IMG/VR virus record: IMGVR_UViG_3300045988_004881 | Span: 1 to 5,082 of that record | Length of the DNA stretch: 5,082 nt | DNA from: a virus | Reading direction: 5' to 3' (one strand) | In this document: positions 2,790 to 5,082 of the stretch, in pieces | Layout: each line of letters opens with the position of its first letter | Position numbering within the stretch: position 1 is the first letter of the stretch | Notes under the pieces: generated by a model | Databases searched by the model: none | What the model was told of the DNA's origin: nothing | Seen by the model: the letters and a program-made list of their open reading frames with translations, nothing else | Position numbers and translations under genes: made by a program

Positions 2790-3083
2790 ATGAAAATTAT
2801 TTTTTGTGTTCATGATCGTAAAACTAATTCGTGTGCTCTTTGCAAAGAAGCCGCAAATATCGAAGAATTTGAGCGCTGGTTTGCGACTGTATTCCTTCGC
2901 GATCAGTCCATGTTTGCGCTTTATCCTCAGGACTATGATATTTATTCCGTTACTTCGCTTGATGATGAGAATATGACCATTCAGGATTCTTATCCGCCTA
3001 AGCTTATTTGTTCGGTCGATGAACTTTTCGACATCTTTAAGATTGCTCGTCCGAACCTTGCCCGAAGCTCGGACGAGGCCTAG
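2790..3083 (+). CDS. VP5-like small protein (97 aa), hypothetical; possible zinc-binding N-terminus and acidic C-terminus
   Basis: ATG at 2790 with AAGGAG at 2777-2782 (7-nt spacer) embedded in the 3' end of VP4, starting 1 nt after the VP4 stop. Its position immediately downstream of Rep is where gokushoviruses carry VP5. The sequence has C-x-H-x7-C-x2-C (CVHDRKTNSCALC) and an acidic tail, and it is followed by a terminator. Similarity to known VP5 was not verifiable by eye. Confidence 0.6.
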   Translation: MKIIFCVHDRKTNSCALCKEAANIEEFERWFATVFLRDQSMFALYPQDYDIYSVTSLDDENMTIQDSYPPKLICSVDELFDIFKIARPNLARSSDEA

Positions 3084-3117
3084 TTCTTCTCTTCTCTTTT
3101 GCCGTTCCCAGCGGCAA

Positions 3118-3156
3118 GCCGCTGATTCTTCCTCTCGTCAGCGGCTTTTTTCTTTT
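3118..3156 (+). terminator. Rho-independent terminator downstream of the VP5-like gene
   Basis: GCCGCTG (3118-3124) pairs with CAGCGGC (3139-3145) as a 7-bp GC-rich stem with a 14-nt loop, followed by TTTTTTCTTTT (3146-3156). An additional upstream CAGCGGC (3109-3115) could form an alternative hairpin with 3118-3124 using a 2-nt loop. The whole element sits in a polypyrimidine tract (3084-3100 and 3146-3162 are pure C/T). Confidence 0.55.
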
Positions 3157-3176
3157 CCCTTTATTGCCCTAGGGGC

Positions 3177-3255
3177 ATGGGGGGAAATCGCGCGGTTTAA
3201 CTGATTTTTGTGCTTGTGTTTTAACTATTCATGTCGTCCGCGAGGTTCCCCCCAT
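3177..3255 (+). repeat. Long-range 10-bp inverted repeat ATGGGGGGAA / TTCCCCCCAT (G6/C6) enclosing 59 nt, with a secondary CGCGG/CCGCG pairing inside
   Basis: ATGGGGGGAA (3177-3186) is the reverse complement of TTCCCCCCAT (3246-3255). Inside it, CGCGG (3191-3195) is complementary to CCGCG (3238-3242). The CCCTAGGG palindrome at 3167-3174 lies immediately upstream. Confidence 0.6.
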
Positions 3256-3269
3256 TATCAGCGCAGAGC

Positions 3270-3288
3270 CTGAGGCGGCCAGCCTCAG
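3270..3288 (+). repeat. GC-rich hairpin: CTGAGGC - GGCCA - GCCTCAG (7-bp stem, 5-nt loop)
   Basis: CTGAGGC (3270-3276) is the reverse complement of GCCTCAG (3282-3288). No T-run follows it. Confidence 0.6.
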
Positions 3289-3331
3289 ATAAAGCGTAGC
3301 TTTAACTTTAAAGGTTAGGTGATGTTATGTC

Positions 3332-3544
3332 ATGTACAAAGTACCTAGTTTTTTTAATCGCTTTATATTTGACGGTTTCGATCGTTGTGAGTATTGCCAA
3401 TGCGTTTTGTTTCATATTGACGACTATGTGTCTGTATGCTTAAATTGTGGTGCTTGTTTTACTAGTAGTAATCTTAAACCTACTAGTCTATTTGAAGATA
3501 CTTGTAGCGCGGATCCGCGCGGAAAGGAAGATCATGAAATTTAA
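3332..3544 (+). CDS. Hypothetical small Cys-rich protein (70 aa); candidate zinc-ribbon with CxxCxC...CxxCxxC; coding status uncertain
   Basis: ATG at 3332 with AGGTGA at 3317-3322 (9-nt spacer). The ORF stays open for 213 nt through an AT-rich region where stops would be expected. Cys positions are C19, C22, C24, C36, C39, C42 and C57, giving the CxxC-x13-CxxC spacing of C4 zinc ribbons. The stop TAA at 3542-3544 overlaps the VP3 start at 3534. It is on the same strand as all other genes, between the terminator and VP3. Confidence 0.3.
   Translation: MYKVPSFFNRFIFDGFDRCEYCQCVLFHIDDYVSVCLNCGACFTSSNLKPTSLFEDTCSADPRGKEDHEI
3507..3520. repeat. Perfect 14-bp palindrome GCGCGGATCCGCGC immediately upstream of the VP3 RBS
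   Basis: The sequence equals its own reverse complement. It ends 1 nt before the GGAAAGGAAG Shine-Dalgarno region of VP3 and lies in the last codons of the 70-aa candidate ORF. Confidence 0.65.
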
Positions 3545-3980
3545 TTCTCGCTATTCTGTTACCGGCGAAAAGCCGGGTATCACTTTTGATCAGCCATCGC
3601 AGACGCTCCAGTCATTTCGAGATGACGCGGACATTAACTGCATTATTGCGCGCTATGAGAATACCGGTGTTCTTGTTGATCCTACTGTACCCGTTTCTCG
3701 CACCCCTGATTTTGGTGATTTTTCTGATATGCCTGATTATCAGACTGCCCAGAATGTCATAATCGCGGCTAAAAATGCGTTCGATTCTCTCTCGTCTAAA
3801 GTTCGCGAACGATTTAACAATGATCCTGCCGCGTACTTTGATTTTGTTCGAAATCTTAAGGAAGGAAGTGATGAATTTGCTGAAGCCGTTAGCCTTGGAA
3901 TTGTTAACAAGCCTGTTGACCATTCTCATGAAGTACCTCCCGGAGCTTCTCAAAGTTCCGGTGAAAAAGTAAATTCTTGA
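3534..3980 (+). CDS. VP3: VP3-like internal scaffolding protein (148 aa)
   Basis: ATG at 3534 is preceded by GGAAAGGAAG (3521-3530), with the AAGGA core and a 5-nt spacer. The ORF-track start at 3447 is a GTG directly after an in-frame TAA and has no RBS, so 3534 is preferred. The sequence MKFNSRYSVTGEKPGITFDQPSQTLQSFRDDADINCIIARYENTGVL matches the gokushovirus VP3 pattern (PS.TQQSF...DIN.I...Y..TG) as far as I recall it. The protein is small and acidic, consistent with a scaffold. Confidence 0.75.
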   Translation: MKFNSRYSVTGEKPGITFDQPSQTLQSFRDDADINCIIARYENTGVLVDPTVPVSRTPDFGDFSDMPDYQTAQNVIIAAKNAFDSLSSKVRERFNNDPAAYFDFVRNLKEGSDEFAEAVSLGIVNKPVDHSHEVPPGASQSSGEKVNS

Positions 3981-4001
3981 CATTTACTAGACATTTACTA
4001 G
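3980..4001 (+). repeat. Perfect tandem duplication of the 11-mer ACATTTACTAG immediately after the VP3 stop
   Basis: Positions 3980-3990 and 3991-4001 are identical. TTGACA (3976-3981) overlaps the VP3 TGA and the first repeat copy. Confidence 0.7.
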
Positions 4002-4014
4002 CGGTAAAACGACG

Positions 4015-4050
4015 TCCGGCCAATTACACTACTTGATGTAATTGGCCGGA
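4015..4050 (+). repeat. Perfect 14-bp stem / 8-nt loop hairpin in the VP3-VP1 intergenic region
   Basis: TCCGGCCAATTACA (4015-4028) is the exact reverse complement of TGTAATTGGCCGGA (4037-4050). The loop is CTACTTGA (4029-4036). No U-tract follows it, since the downstream sequence is GTGACACCG, so it is not a canonical intrinsic terminator. Confidence 0.7.
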
Positions 4051-4155
4051 GTGACACCGTTAAACGGTTAATTCTTCACATCCTTTGAATAAGTTGTGAA
4101 TGATACAGCCTGTTGGCTTTGCCTTAGGGCGGTCATTCCAGAAAGGTTTATTGAT

Positions 4156-5082
4156 ATGAAATCAGTTATGAAGCATTTGTTTTCACAGATTCCGAGAGCT
4201 CAAATTTCTCGGTCTGTGTTTGATCGCTCTCATGGTTGGAAATCTACATTTGATAGTGGTTACCTTGTTCCGTTTCTCGTTGATGAAGTTCTGCCCGGCG
4301 ATTCTTACAAGGTTAAGTTTAATTTTTTGGCTCGTCTTAGTACTCCGATTGTTCCGACCATGGATAACTTGTTCCTCGACACTTTTTATTTTTTTGTTCC
4401 GTATCGTCTTCTGTGGAAACACTGGGAACAGTTCAACGGTCAGCAGGATTATCCGGGAGCTAGTACGGATTATCTCGTACCTCAAACTTCCGCTCCTGCT
4501 GAAGGTGGTTTTCCTGTTGGATCCTTGGAAGATTATTTCGGCTTGCCTACTGGTGTGCAAGGTATCAAGGCTAATGAATTGGCCGCTAGAGCGTATGCCC
4601 TTATTTGGAATGAATGGTTTAGAGATGAAAATTTGCAGAATCCTATCAACCTTTCATCTTACGCCGAAATTTCAACGGCTTCTGGCCTTGATGATGTTGG
4701 TCTCGGTGATGCTGGTTTTACCGGTTCTCACAAGCTTTTGAGACGTGGTAAGCGTCACGATTATTTTACGAGTGCTCTTCCGTGGCCACAAAAAGGCCCT
4801 GGCGTTGAATTACCACTTTCCGGTAATGCTGAGATTATTAGAGATGGTAATAAGGCTTTCGCTTTGAGTGATGGTGATAATTCTCATATTGTTGGCTTTT
4901 CTTATACTGGTGGTCGTGGTCAGCTCTCTAAACCGCTAGCCCCTACTGATGCTGTTGTCGGTTTTTCCCAGTTTGCGCAGGGTACTGGTTCCGATATTAC
5001 TGCTCCTTTACTTGGTTATTATGGTGGTTTGGTCGCTGATCTTTCTTCTGTGACTGCCGCTACTATTAACTCTCTTCGTCAG
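4156..5082 (+). CDS. VP1: Major capsid protein VP1 (F-like), N-terminal portion of 309 codons; continues at 100..840 by circular wrap
   Basis: ATG at 4156 with AAAGG at 4142-4146 (9-nt spacer). Translation is MKSVMKHLFSQIPRAQISRSVFDRSHGWKSTFDSGYLVPFLVDEVLPGDSYKVKFNFLARLSTPIVPTMDNLFLDTFYFFVPYRLLWKHWEQFNG. This matches the highly conserved Microviridae capsid N-terminus (F..SQ.P...I.RS.FD.SH....TF..G.L.P....EVLPGD.). There is no stop through 5082. Positions 4984-5082 duplicate 1-99 in frame. Confidence 0.92.
   Translation, partial: MKSVMKHLFSQIPRAQISRSVFDRSHGWKSTFDSGYLVPFLVDEVLPGDSYKVKFNFLARLSTPIVPTMDNLFLDTFYFFVPYRLLWKHWEQFNGQQDYPGASTDYLVPQTSAPAEGGFPVGSLEDYFGLPTGVQGIKANELAARAYALIWNEWFRDENLQNPINLSSYAEISTASGLDDVGLGDAGFTGSHKLLRRGKRHDYFTSALPWPQKGPGVELPLSGNAEIIRDGNKAFALSDGDNSHIVGFSYTGGRGQLSKPLAPTDAVVGFSQFAQGTGSDITAPLLGYYGGLVADLSSVTAATINSLRQ
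4984..5082. repeat. 99-nt terminal redundancy identical to positions 1-99; this is an assembly signature of a circular genome with a unit length of 4983 nt
   Basis: Direct comparison shows 4984-5082 identical to 1-99 base for base. The VP1 reading frame is continuous across the implied junction. Confidence 0.95.

What the first reader, a model, noticed from the sequence alone, without database searches (positions are those of the whole stretch)
3084..3331. A ~250-nt non-coding block packed with ssDNA secondary-structure elements: candidate origin/regulatory hub
Within 250 nt there are six elements. First, a pure polypyrimidine tract. Second, three copies of the 7-mer arm (CAGCGGC / GCCGCTG / CAGCGGC) that allow two mutually exclusive hairpins, of which only the downstream one is followed by a U-tract and acts as the terminator. 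Third, the palindrome CCCTAGGG. Fourth, a 10-bp G6/C6 inverted repeat (3177-3186 / 3246-3255) enclosing 59 nt with further internal pairing. Fifth, the hairpin CTGAGGC-GGCCA-GCCTCAG. Sixth, three TTTAACT copies (3196, 3219, 3301). This is an unusual concentration of structure for a 5-kb genome that is otherwise almost fully coding. In ssDNA phages such structured plus-strand regions serve as complementary-strand origins or primosome/primase entry sites, packaging signals, or Rep nick sites. The Rep nick site of gokushoviruses is not well defined.
Basis: seen in the sequence. Interest (0 to 1): 0.55.

Follow-up and report, generated by a model that had tools for sequence, protein, structure and literature searches.

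The report
Terminator and plasmid-like single-strand origin
This non-coding stretch of a small single-stranded-DNA phage holds a transcription stop signal followed by a folded DNA module that small rolling-circle plasmids also carry, which makes it the best candidate for the site where the host starts copying the phage's single strand into a double strand.

Summary
The window is a complete gokushovirus-type microvirus genome of 4,983 nt. All six listed elements are present, and the block folds far better than shuffled sequence (z = -5.3). Comparison with about 55 related phage genomes splits it into parts. Positions 3100-3151 hold two abutting hairpins plus a T-run, an intrinsic terminator after VP5 that is conserved with compensatory changes. 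Positions 3156-3269 hold a mini-hairpin plus the G6/C6 hairpin, with a covarying inner stem. Positions 3270-3304 hold two small hairpins found only in a subset of relatives.

The CCCTAGGG palindrome, the TTTAACT repeats and the "alternative" CAGCGGC hairpin are not conserved features.

The G6/C6 module also occurs on seven small plasmid contigs of the pMV158/RepB rolling-circle family. It is as similar there as the phage copies are to each other. It always lies on the rep-sense (nicked, displaced) strand. In one plasmid it sits between divergent promoters. The best reading is therefore a host-dependent complementary-strand origin, like a plasmid single-strand origin (sso), of an undescribed sequence class. 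This is unproven.

The Rep nick site is most likely elsewhere. The hairpin at 4015-4050 has a loop, CTACTTGATG, that matches the phiX174 origin core and is conserved across distant gokushoviruses.

The parts
3084..3100 (+). Pure pyrimidine spacer after the VP5 stop codon
   Evidence: Read directly. Pyrimidine-rich but variable in length and sequence in relatives.
3100..3116 (+). Hairpin HP1 (TGCCGTT / AGCGGCA), abutting the terminator
   Evidence: In the RNA minimum-energy fold of the window and of nearly all the 17 relatives compared (a different hairpin in L004; absent from L016, L021 and the L007 fold), and in the ssDNA fold. TTTGCCG is the best conserved motif of the 5' part.
3117..3151 (+). 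Hairpin HP2 (10-bp stem 3117-3126/3137-3146) plus T-run: intrinsic terminator after VP5
   Evidence: (I6). Compensatory changes in relatives include GCCGCTAA/TTAGCGGC, GACGCCGCCG/CGGCGGCGT and CCGTTGG/CCAACGG. Deleted in L016 and L021. The scan did not list it because its loop exceeds the scan's 8-nt limit.
3156..3175 (+). Mini-hairpin YCCCT...AGGGG. The conserved feature that overlaps the non-conserved CCCTAGGG palindrome.
   Evidence: Consensus fold of 44 sequences, 99% of cells paired, departures only as T.G wobble. Also present in the plasmid and chromosomal copies.
3177..3255 (+). Main hairpin of the shared module. Outer stem 3177-3186/3246-3255, internal loop A versus GG, inner stem 3188-3192/3239-3243, A/T-rich apical region of about 45 nt with the conserved TTAACTATTCATG.
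   Evidence: Present in 14 of 17 relatives found through the VP5 protein, so not selected by the motif. Inner stem CG/GC swaps on both arms in 22 versus 22 sequences with none mixed. Homologous copies on seven RepB plasmid contigs.
3256..3269 (+). Conserved 3' flank of the module (TATCAGCGCAG)
   Evidence: Alignment A1. AGCGCAG is shared with the plasmid copies.
3270..3304 (+). Two small hairpins (3270-3288 and 3290-3304), present only in a subset of relatives
   Evidence: Found only in the window, L010, L071 and L093. The second hairpin changes AAAGC/GCTTT to AGCGC/GCGCT in L093. Plasmids have a different GC-rich hairpin at the same place.
3317..3331 (+). Shine-Dalgarno sequence (AGGTGAT) and start codons of two overlapping ORFs (ATG 3327 and ATG 3332)
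4015..4050 (+). Outside the finding: hairpin with loop CTACTTGA, the best candidate for the Rep (VP4) nick site and plus-strand origin
   Evidence: Perfect 14-bp stem (I1). Loop invariant and stem covarying in 56 relatives. 12 of 18 positions identical to the phiX174 origin, including ACTTGAT around the annotated nick at 4306. Same loop motif with unrelated stems in 52 more distant microvirus contigs, 51 on the gene-sense strand.

Best explanation
The block is a composite of four parts.

1. Positions 3100-3151 are an intrinsic terminator, two stacked hairpins plus a T-run, that ends transcription coming from VP4 and VP5.

2. Positions 3156-3269 are a structured module made of a mini-hairpin and the G6/C6 hairpin, and may extend to 3304. 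It acts on the plus-sense single strand as the host-dependent origin for complementary (minus) strand synthesis. This is the phage counterpart of a plasmid single-strand origin (sso). After the viral circle enters the cell, the hairpin base stays folded while the rest is coated by single-strand-binding protein. A host enzyme, either RNA polymerase or DnaG primase/primosome, recognises the fold and lays down the primer for the complementary strand.

3. Positions 3270-3304 are lineage-specific hairpins of unknown role.

4. Positions 3317-3331 are the ribosome-binding site and start codons of the next genes.

What is shown: the structures, their conservation, covariation and strand specificity, and the homology with plasmid copies lying on the displaced strand. 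What is inferred: the priming function and the identity of the enzyme. The Rep nick site is not in this block.
For: - Structure: z = -5.3 for the block. The consensus fold of 44 distinct copies has 97.7% of cells paired, against 42-60% when the partners are slid.
- Covariation: two adjacent inner-stem pairs swap CG and GC on both arms, 22 versus 22 sequences with none mixed. A third pair swaps in L147.
- Strand specificity: all 34 one-sided changes are T.G wobbles on the plus sense, which would be A.C mismatches on the other strand.
- Shared module: the only similarity between the phage and contigs L042, L044, L078 and L108 is window 3152-3266 (72-75% identity, E = 1e-12 to 1e-15). Outside the columns fixed by the search pattern, plasmid-to-phage identity is 0.66-0.68, equal to the phage-to-phage median of 0.67.
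- The contigs are plasmids: L108 is a head-to-tail dimer of a 2,664-nt circle. It encodes a RepB protein (Pfam Rep_OBD E = 3e-43, RepB_C E = 2e-15).
- Cassette-like distribution: the module accompanies Rep proteins that are 100, 87, 36 and 22% identical to each other. It is absent from other RepB plasmids. This matches the known exchange of sso cassettes (PMC5703833).
- Orientation: in 7 of 7 plasmid contigs the module is on the rep-sense strand. It scores 88-110 bits there and 15-20 bits on the other strand.
- Displaced strand: L078 and L042 carry the pMV158 nick sequence TACTACGAC in a hairpin loop on that same strand (nick sequence from PMC1851628). The module therefore lies on the displaced strand, as an orientation-specific sso must (PMC5703833, PMC4595007).
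- DNA-level role: in L108 the module sits between a TTGACT-17-TATAAT promoter pointing away from it and the rep promoter region. An RNA role there is unlikely.
- Position in phages: in every relative where the flanks could be read the module lies between VP5 and the next gene, and in every microvirus contig carrying it, it is on the gene-sense (viral) strand.
- Cassette replacement in phages: close relatives L005-L007 (VP4 86-88% identical) carry an unrelated sequence at the same place.
Against: - There is no functional evidence of any kind.
- The module has no match to any Rfam family and none in 72,556 PLSDB plasmids.
- It lacks the RSB/CS-6 arrangement of classical ssoA. TAGCGT occurs in some relatives, but 3' of the stem rather than in a loop.
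- No convincing sigma-70-type promoter can be read in the hairpin (and inspection).
- The main hairpin alone is only moderately more stable than shuffles (z from -2.0 to -5.0).
- Covariation rests on two or three pairs, which could reflect very few events.
- The plasmid contigs are related to one another, so 7 of 7 co-orientation is fewer than seven independent observations.
- The plasmids also carry another large inverted repeat (L108 2589-2688) that could be their real sso.
- A copy sharing the mini-hairpin and the base of the stem sits in a chromosomal intergenic region of a Ruminococcus MAG. It occurs once (L050) or twice in tandem (L114), just upstream of a ribosome-binding site. A replication origin does not explain this.
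Confidence: 0.5

Rival explanations
1. The module works in RNA. It would be a 5'-leader or intercistronic structure in the mRNA for the downstream genes (38-aa ORF, ORF70, VP3, VP1), for example a stabilising 5' hairpin, a processing site or a translational regulator.
For: The helices are plus-sense specific, with T.G wobbles only. That fits mRNA as well as viral ssDNA. In most phage relatives the module ends 10-20 nt before the Shine-Dalgarno sequence. The chromosomal copies in L114 and L050 also end just before AGGAGG-ATG.
Against: In the phage the module lies directly downstream of a strong conserved terminator. In this window about 60 nt of extra sequence separate it from the ribosome-binding site. 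On plasmid L108 it lies between divergent promoters and is not next to any gene on its own strand. It is shared by replicons whose adjacent genes are unrelated.
Confidence: 0.2
2. The module is a small selfish palindromic element, of MITE or REP type, that has inserted into phages, plasmids and a chromosome and serves none of them.
For: It is present on three kinds of replicon. It is tandemly duplicated in L114 but single in the orthologous locus L050. Its terminal inverted repeat resembles MITE ends.
Against: There is no target-site duplication at its borders (by inspection). It has one fixed position and one orientation in every phage genome that carries it. It has the same orientation relative to rep in all plasmids. 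Only one chromosomal locus was found among 185,579 species genomes with the exact arms. The inner-stem changes are compensatory. The pattern appears in no other virus type.
Confidence: 0.1
3. The module is a double-stranded DNA site bound by a host protein, such as an operator, a recombinase or Xer-type site, or a nucleoid protein site.
For: The G6/C6 arms and the apical motif TTAACTATTCATG are conserved in sequence and not only in pairing. On plasmid L108 the module lies upstream of a promoter.
Against: Compensatory changes and wobble-only departures indicate intrastrand pairing on one strand. The 45-nt apical region is too variable for a 28-bp dif-type site. Its orientation relative to replication is fixed.
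Confidence: 0.1
4. As the first reader also proposed, the block contains the Rep (VP4) nick site or a packaging signal.
For: Structured non-coding DNA is a usual place for such sites. Nothing more specific was found.
Against: The module is shared with plasmids whose initiators (RepB) are unrelated to VP4 and differ among themselves. The only phiX174-origin-like sequence in the genome is at 4029-4042, in the loop of a hairpin. That hairpin is conserved with covarying stems across distant gokushoviruses. L005-L007 keep that hairpin but lack the G6/C6 module.
Confidence: 0.05

Closest known systems
[quoted passage not shown]
   Same: It is a non-coding module of about 115-150 nt with extensive intrastrand pairing. 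It is carried on rolling-circle replicons, including pMV158-family RepB plasmids. Its orientation is fixed on the displaced strand. It is distributed like a cassette among plasmids with different Rep proteins.
   Different: No sequence similarity to any PLSDB plasmid. No RSB plus loop-borne CS-6 arrangement. It is found in a virus genome and at a chromosomal locus. Function is untested.
Complementary-strand origins of Bullavirinae: the phiX174 primosome assembly site (hairpin in the intergenic region upstream of gene G) and the G4 primase-recognised origin
   Same: It lies in an intergenic region of a microvirus, forms a hairpin on the viral strand and would depend on host factors. The position is separate from the Rep nick site, as in phiX174 (PMC9865509, PMC5714925).
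   Different: No sequence relationship was detected, and the host is probably a Gram-positive Bacillota. Whether priming is by primosome, primase alone or RNA polymerase is unknown.
[quoted passage not shown]
   Same: It is a precedent for an sso recognised on a non-plasmid element through similarity to a plasmid sso. The assays used there would apply here.
   Different: sso1 was shown to be functional and orientation-specific. Here there is sequence evidence only.
Minus-strand origin of filamentous phages (M13/f1), where hairpins on the viral strand are recognised by RNA polymerase
   Same: Adjacent hairpins in the main intergenic region of an ssDNA phage, next to a terminator. This comparison is from my own knowledge.
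   Different: No promoter-like -35/-10 elements could be read in the folded module, and there is no sequence similarity.

Membership tests
Single-strand origin (sso/ssi) in the general sense | Non-coding DNA with extensive intrastrand pairing on the strand that becomes single-stranded | tested here: met
   Wobble pattern specific to the plus sense.
Single-strand origin (sso/ssi) in the general sense | Fixed orientation relative to leading-strand replication, lying on the displaced strand | tested here: met
   7 of 7 plasmid contigs have it on the rep-sense strand. The TACTACGAC nick loop is on the same strand in L078 and L042. It is on the viral strand in all phages. This is correlative, and the plasmids are related to each other.
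Single-strand origin (sso/ssi) in the general sense | Promotes conversion of ssDNA to dsDNA (lowers ssDNA accumulation) in an orientation-specific way | not testable with these tools
   Needs the assays of PMC4595007.
Single-strand origin (sso/ssi) in the general sense | Primer synthesis by host RNA polymerase or primase at the site | not testable with these tools
   Leads only: invariant TTCCCCCC, and an invariant TTA in the apical region. Known primase preferences are d(CCC) in C. difficile and d(CTA)/d(TTA) in other Firmicutes (PMC5204125).
ssoA class | RSB sequence at the base of the hairpin and CS-6 (TAGCGT/A) in the terminal loop | tested here: not met
   Only TTTGCCG (3098-3104) resembles the core of the RSB example TTATGCCGAGAAAATTT (PMC4598088), and it lies in HP1, not in the module. 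TAGCGT occurs in some relatives 3' of the stem and never in a loop. No BLAST match to plasmids.
Intrinsic (rho-independent) terminator | GC-rich stem-loop immediately followed by a T-run on the sense strand, downstream of a gene | tested here: met
   3117-3146 plus T6. Conserved with compensatory changes in all but two (L016, L021) of the 17 relatives compared. Termination itself was not measured.
Transcription attenuator with mutually exclusive hairpins | An alternative hairpin that competes with the terminator and is itself conserved | tested here: inconclusive
   CAGCGGC-AA-GCCGCTG can be drawn, and covaries in L002. It is never in the minimum-energy fold, would have a 2-nt loop, and is weak in L005-L007. 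HP1 plus HP2 is the conserved state.
Microvirus plus-strand origin / Rep nick site | Sequence related to the phiX174 origin core CAACTTG/ATATTAATAAC | tested here: not met
   No match within 3 mismatches in 3084-3331. The single match is at 4029-4042.
MITE / REP-type repeat | Terminal inverted repeats with target-site duplication and many dispersed genomic copies | tested here: not met
   Inverted repeat present, but no duplication at the borders. One chromosomal locus found. The scan required exact 10-nt arms, so diverged copies would be missed.
Any Rfam RNA family | Covariance-model match | tested here: not met
   Only a sub-threshold ar14 match at 3042-3152 (25 bits against a gathering score of 58.8, E = 0.096), over the terminator region.

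The most novel reading that the evidence does not exclude
An undescribed class of single-strand-origin cassette is exchanged horizontally between a clade of gut gokushoviruses and pMV158-family rolling-circle plasmids, with a relative of the element at a chromosomal locus of a Ruminococcus-like bacterium. If so, the phage and the plasmids depend on the same host priming machinery. That would tie this uncultured gokushovirus clade to Gram-positive Bacillota hosts and give the first defined minus-strand origin outside the phiX174/G4 group. A more speculative variant is that the small plasmids carry the phage's element because they exploit the phage.
Probability: 0.4. Interest if true: 0.7.

Novelty: new variant of a known kind. 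Interest (0 to 1): 0.55.

Why it matters
How microviruses other than phiX174 and G4 start their complementary strand is not known. A recent survey could only point to conserved hairpins without assigning them a function (PMC9865509).

A module shared with rolling-circle plasmids, on the strand that becomes single-stranded, turns that question into a direct experiment. The module can be cloned into an sso-less vector and single-stranded DNA measured.

It would also show that ssDNA phages and plasmids draw on a common pool of host-specific origin cassettes. That offers a sequence-based clue to the hosts of an abundant, uncultured group of gut phages.

Separately, the analysis places the likely Rep nick site at 4015-4050, in a hairpin loop conserved across distant gokushoviruses.

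Tried and rejected
- Rfam scan of the whole window at E <= 1: nothing relevant.
- BLAST of the module, its plasmid copy and the terminator region against 72,556 plasmids: no match, or chance matches only. The pMV158 record could not be fetched.
- Sigma-70-type promoter scan: no plus-strand promoter in 3084-3331. By eye, the -10-like TATAAA in some relatives has no -35 partner, so neither an ordinary promoter nor a single-strand promoter could be argued.
- Attenuator reading of the three CAGCGGC/GCCGCTG copies: not supported by the minimum-energy folds of the window or of any of the 17 relatives.
- CCCTAGGG as a functional palindrome: lost in L016, L021 and L023 while the flanking AGGGG is kept.
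- TTTAACT as a repeated site: the first and third copies are not conserved.
- Integron attC-like and dif/Xer-like readings of the apical region: considered by eye and dropped because the region is too variable.
- MITE reading: no target duplication.
- The analogous stem in L005-L007 (GTAATYC/GRATTAC) does not fold better than shuffles (z = -0.02), so it was not used as support.
- Function of the plasmid ORF next to the module (103/111 aa): no hit in Pfam, NCBIfam or PHROGs.

Full report
**What the window is**

The 5,082 bases are a circular genome of 4,983 nt with a 99-nt terminal redundancy. All genes are on the plus strand:
- VP1: 4156, across the junction, to 840
- VP2: 856-1758
- a small basic ORF ending at 1889
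- VP4/Rep: 1892-2788 (Pfam REP_ORF2-G2P)
- VP5: 2790-3083 (Pfam Phage_ORF5)
- the block in question
- ORF70: 3332-3544
- VP3: 3534-3980
- a second non-coding region: 3981-4155

GenBank holds gokushovirus-type relatives at 77-83% identity from human, cat and pig samples. IMG/VR and metagenomes gave about fifty more.

**Check of the observation**

The only coordinate error is that the middle TTTAACT starts at 3220.

As ssDNA the block folds to -45.1 kcal/mol, against -26.6 +/- 3.5 for dinucleotide shuffles (z = -5.26). In a sliding fold of the whole genome, the strongest windows are 3041-3160 (z = -7.2) and 3961-4120 (z = -6.6 and -5.9). The G6/C6 window reaches only -2.3, because its 45-nt apical part is unstructured.

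The concentration of structure is therefore real. It is shared with the other intergenic region, which the finding does not mention.

**Dissection by comparison**

I aligned the VP5-to-ORF70 spacer of 17 relatives that were found through the VP5 protein. Their selection did not depend on any motif in the spacer.

1. *The 5' part.* It is two hairpins that abut each other: HP1 at 3100-3116, and HP2 at 3117-3146 followed by T6.
   - This pair of hairpins is the RNA minimum-energy fold of the window and of most relatives. L004 has a different first hairpin, and the L007 fold lacks one.
   - HP2 shows repeated compensatory changes.
   - Two relatives (L016, L021) have lost both hairpins.
   - This is an intrinsic terminator after VP5.

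2. *The middle part.* It is a mini-hairpin, YCCCT...AGGGG at 3156-3175, followed by the G6/C6 hairpin at 3177-3255.
   - 14 of the 17 relatives have the G6/C6 arms unchanged.
   - The palindrome CCCTAGGG is not kept (for example GCGGAAGGGG in L016). The AGGGG that pairs with the upstream CCCCT is kept.

3. *The 3' part.* The hairpin at 3270-3288 and a second one at 3290-3304 lie in a stretch of about 44 nt. It is found only in the window, L010, L071 and L093.

4. *The TTTAACT copies.* Only the middle copy is semi-conserved.

**Structure of the module**

I collected 44 distinct copies, 40 from phages and 4 from plasmids.
- The consensus fold has the mini-hairpin, a 10-bp outer stem, an internal loop of A against GG, and an inner stem of 5-7 bp.
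- 97.7% of cells are paired, against 42-60% when the 3' partners are slid by one to three columns.
- Two adjacent inner-stem pairs are CG/GC in 22 sequences and GC/CG in the other 22, with no mixed case. One further pair is swapped in plasmid L147.
- All 34 one-sided changes give T.G wobbles on the plus sense, so the fold belongs to the plus-sense strand.

One caveat applies. Because these copies were collected with a pattern that fixes the arms, the invariance of the arms in this set is not evidence. The protein-seeded set is the evidence for that.

**The lead that changes the picture**

I scanned metagenomes for the two arms with any 40-70 nt between them. The pattern is a palindrome, so it is blind to orientation. 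Besides microviruses, it returned contigs with no microvirus gene at all: L042, L044, L061, L078 and L108.
- Their only similarity to the phage is window 3152-3266 (72-75% identity over about 115 nt).
- L108 is a head-to-tail dimer of a 2,664-nt unit, that is, a small circle.
- It encodes a 189-aa protein with the Rep_OBD and RepB_C domains of the pMV158 family of rolling-circle initiators (E = 3e-43 and 2e-15).
- The other contigs encode RepB proteins that are 100, 87, 36 and 22% identical to it.
- Two more plasmid contigs, reached through a RepB homologue, also carry the module (L147, L148). Others do not.
- Outside the pattern-fixed columns, the plasmid copies are 66-68% identical to their nearest phage copy. 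That equals the median between phage copies.
- RepB relatives in PLSDB are overwhelmingly from Bacillota. The phage and the plasmids have the same G+C content, 44% and 43%.

**Orientation and context on the plasmids**

- In all seven contigs the module, read in the phage's plus sense, is on the rep-coding strand. A covariance model scores 88-110 bits on that strand and 15-20 bits on the other.
- L078 and L042 carry a hairpin on that same strand whose loop is TACTACGAC. This is exactly the pMV158 nick sequence 5'-TACTACG/AC-3' (PMC1851628). The rep-sense strand is therefore the one that is nicked and displaced as a single strand.
- In L108 the module lies between a near-consensus promoter, TTGACT-17-TATAAT, that points away from it and the rep promoter region. 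It is probably not transcribed there.

A cis element that meets all of the following fits the definition of a single-strand origin (PMC5703833, PMC4595007, PMC5714925):
- it is shared by replicons with unrelated initiators;
- it always lies on the strand that becomes single-stranded;
- it is structured on that strand;
- it is exchanged like a cassette.

The phage needs such a site, and none is known for gokushoviruses (PMC9865509).

**What does not fit**

- The module matches no known sso class. There is no hit in PLSDB, no RSB/CS-6 arrangement and no Rfam family.
- I could read no promoter in the fold.
- The covariation involves few pairs.
- The plasmid contigs are related to each other.
- The plasmids have another large inverted repeat that could be their origin.
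- A Ruminococcus MAG has two tandem copies (L114) of an element that shares the mini-hairpin, the base of the stem and the ATTAT flank, but has a different GC-rich apex. It scores 39.9 bits. A related metagenome contig (L050) has one copy at the same locus. In both it lies between two chromosomal genes, just before a ribosome-binding site.
- This chromosomal copy keeps alive an RNA-level reading and a repeat-element reading. The former is weakened by the terminator upstream in the phage and by the plasmid context. The latter is weakened by the lack of target duplications and by the fixed position and orientation.

**The Rep nick site**

- The hairpin at 4015-4050 has a perfect 14-bp stem and the loop CTACTTGA.
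- Window 4029-4046, CTACTTGATGTAATTGGC, matches the phiX174 origin CAACTTGATATTAATAAC at 12 of 18 positions, including ACTTGAT around the annotated origin position 4306.
- It is the only such site in the genome.
- In 56 relatives the loop is invariant and the stem covaries: CCGGCC/GGCCGG, CCAGCC/GGCTGG, CCCCGC/GCGGGG, CCTCAC/GTGAGG.
- The same loop motif sits between unrelated stems, such as GCACAGTTAC/GTAACTGTGC, in 52 microvirus contigs whose VP1 is only about 50-55% identical. It is on the gene-sense strand in 51 of them.
- Relatives L005-L007 keep this hairpin but lack the G6/C6 module.

The plus-strand origin is therefore most likely in the other intergenic region.

**Verdict**

The block is a terminator, followed by a module whose best-supported role is a host-dependent complementary-strand origin of a new sequence class, followed by lineage-specific hairpins and a ribosome-binding site. 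I put the origin reading at about 0.5. The kind of element is known, but this version and its sharing between a gokushovirus clade and RepB plasmids appear to be undescribed.

Noticed in passing
window 3327-3443: A 38-codon hydrophobic ORF (MSCTKYLVFLIALYLTVSIVVSIANAFCFILTTMCLYA) overlaps ORF70 in another frame. It is exactly 38 codons long in the window and in all 17 relatives examined, including the distant L005-L007. It may be a small membrane or lysis protein, and it moves the end of the non-coding block to 3326.
   Followed up: partly
window 3981-4155: The second non-coding region holds several features: the origin-like hairpin 4015-4050, a tandem 11-mer CTTGACATTTA/CTAGACATTTA at 3976-3997, a small hairpin ACCGTTAAACGGT at 4056-4068, the conserved GGAGTGACACC after the hairpin, and a promoter-like site TTCACA-18-AATGAT at 4075-4104 upstream of VP1.
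   Followed up: partly
window 3332-3544: ORF70 is conserved in all relatives (55-100% amino-acid identity). It has a CxxC...CxxC pattern and no family assignment in Pfam, NCBIfam or PHROGs above threshold.
   Followed up: partly
L108 1-5512 (metagenome contig OLYN01004484.1): This is a 2,664-nt RepB plasmid assembled as a dimer. Besides rep and the shared module it has an ORF of 103/111 aa with a GGWREGAGRP motif and no family hit. It also has a 27-codon hydrophobic ORF (MNDVITFFISVVAGVIANCISKWFDGK) that looks like a type I toxin, and a perfect 24-bp inverted repeat at 2589-2688.
   Followed up: partly
L114 1981-2200 and L050 715-849: A chromosomal intergenic element in a Ruminococcus MAG shares the mini-hairpin, stem base and ATTAT flank of the phage module but has a different GC-rich apex. 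There are two tandem 101-nt copies in L114 and one copy at the orthologous locus in L050.
   Followed up: partly
L010, L032, L069 compared with the window: The genomes are mosaics. These contigs encode VP2, VP5 and ORF70 identical to the window, but their VP3 is 77% and their VP1 79-83% identical, which indicates recent recombination between lineages.
   Followed up: no
L106 (contig OJJY01000846.1): This 9,835-nt contig is an inverted dimer of a microvirus genome with two copies of the module in opposite orientation. It is either an assembly artefact or a replication intermediate.
   Followed up: no
window 3010-3077: Two further inverted repeats (3010-3019/3047-3056 and 3046-3054/3069-3077) lie inside the 3' end of VP5. 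They contribute to the strongest folding window of the genome (3041-3160).
   Followed up: no
L078 and L042, rep-sense strand downstream of the module: Tandem repeats of about 36 nt (GATAGTGTSCACTTGAGTAYATAAAGTGATCCTGACG) lie between the module and rep. They look like iterons or a RepB bind locus.
   Followed up: no
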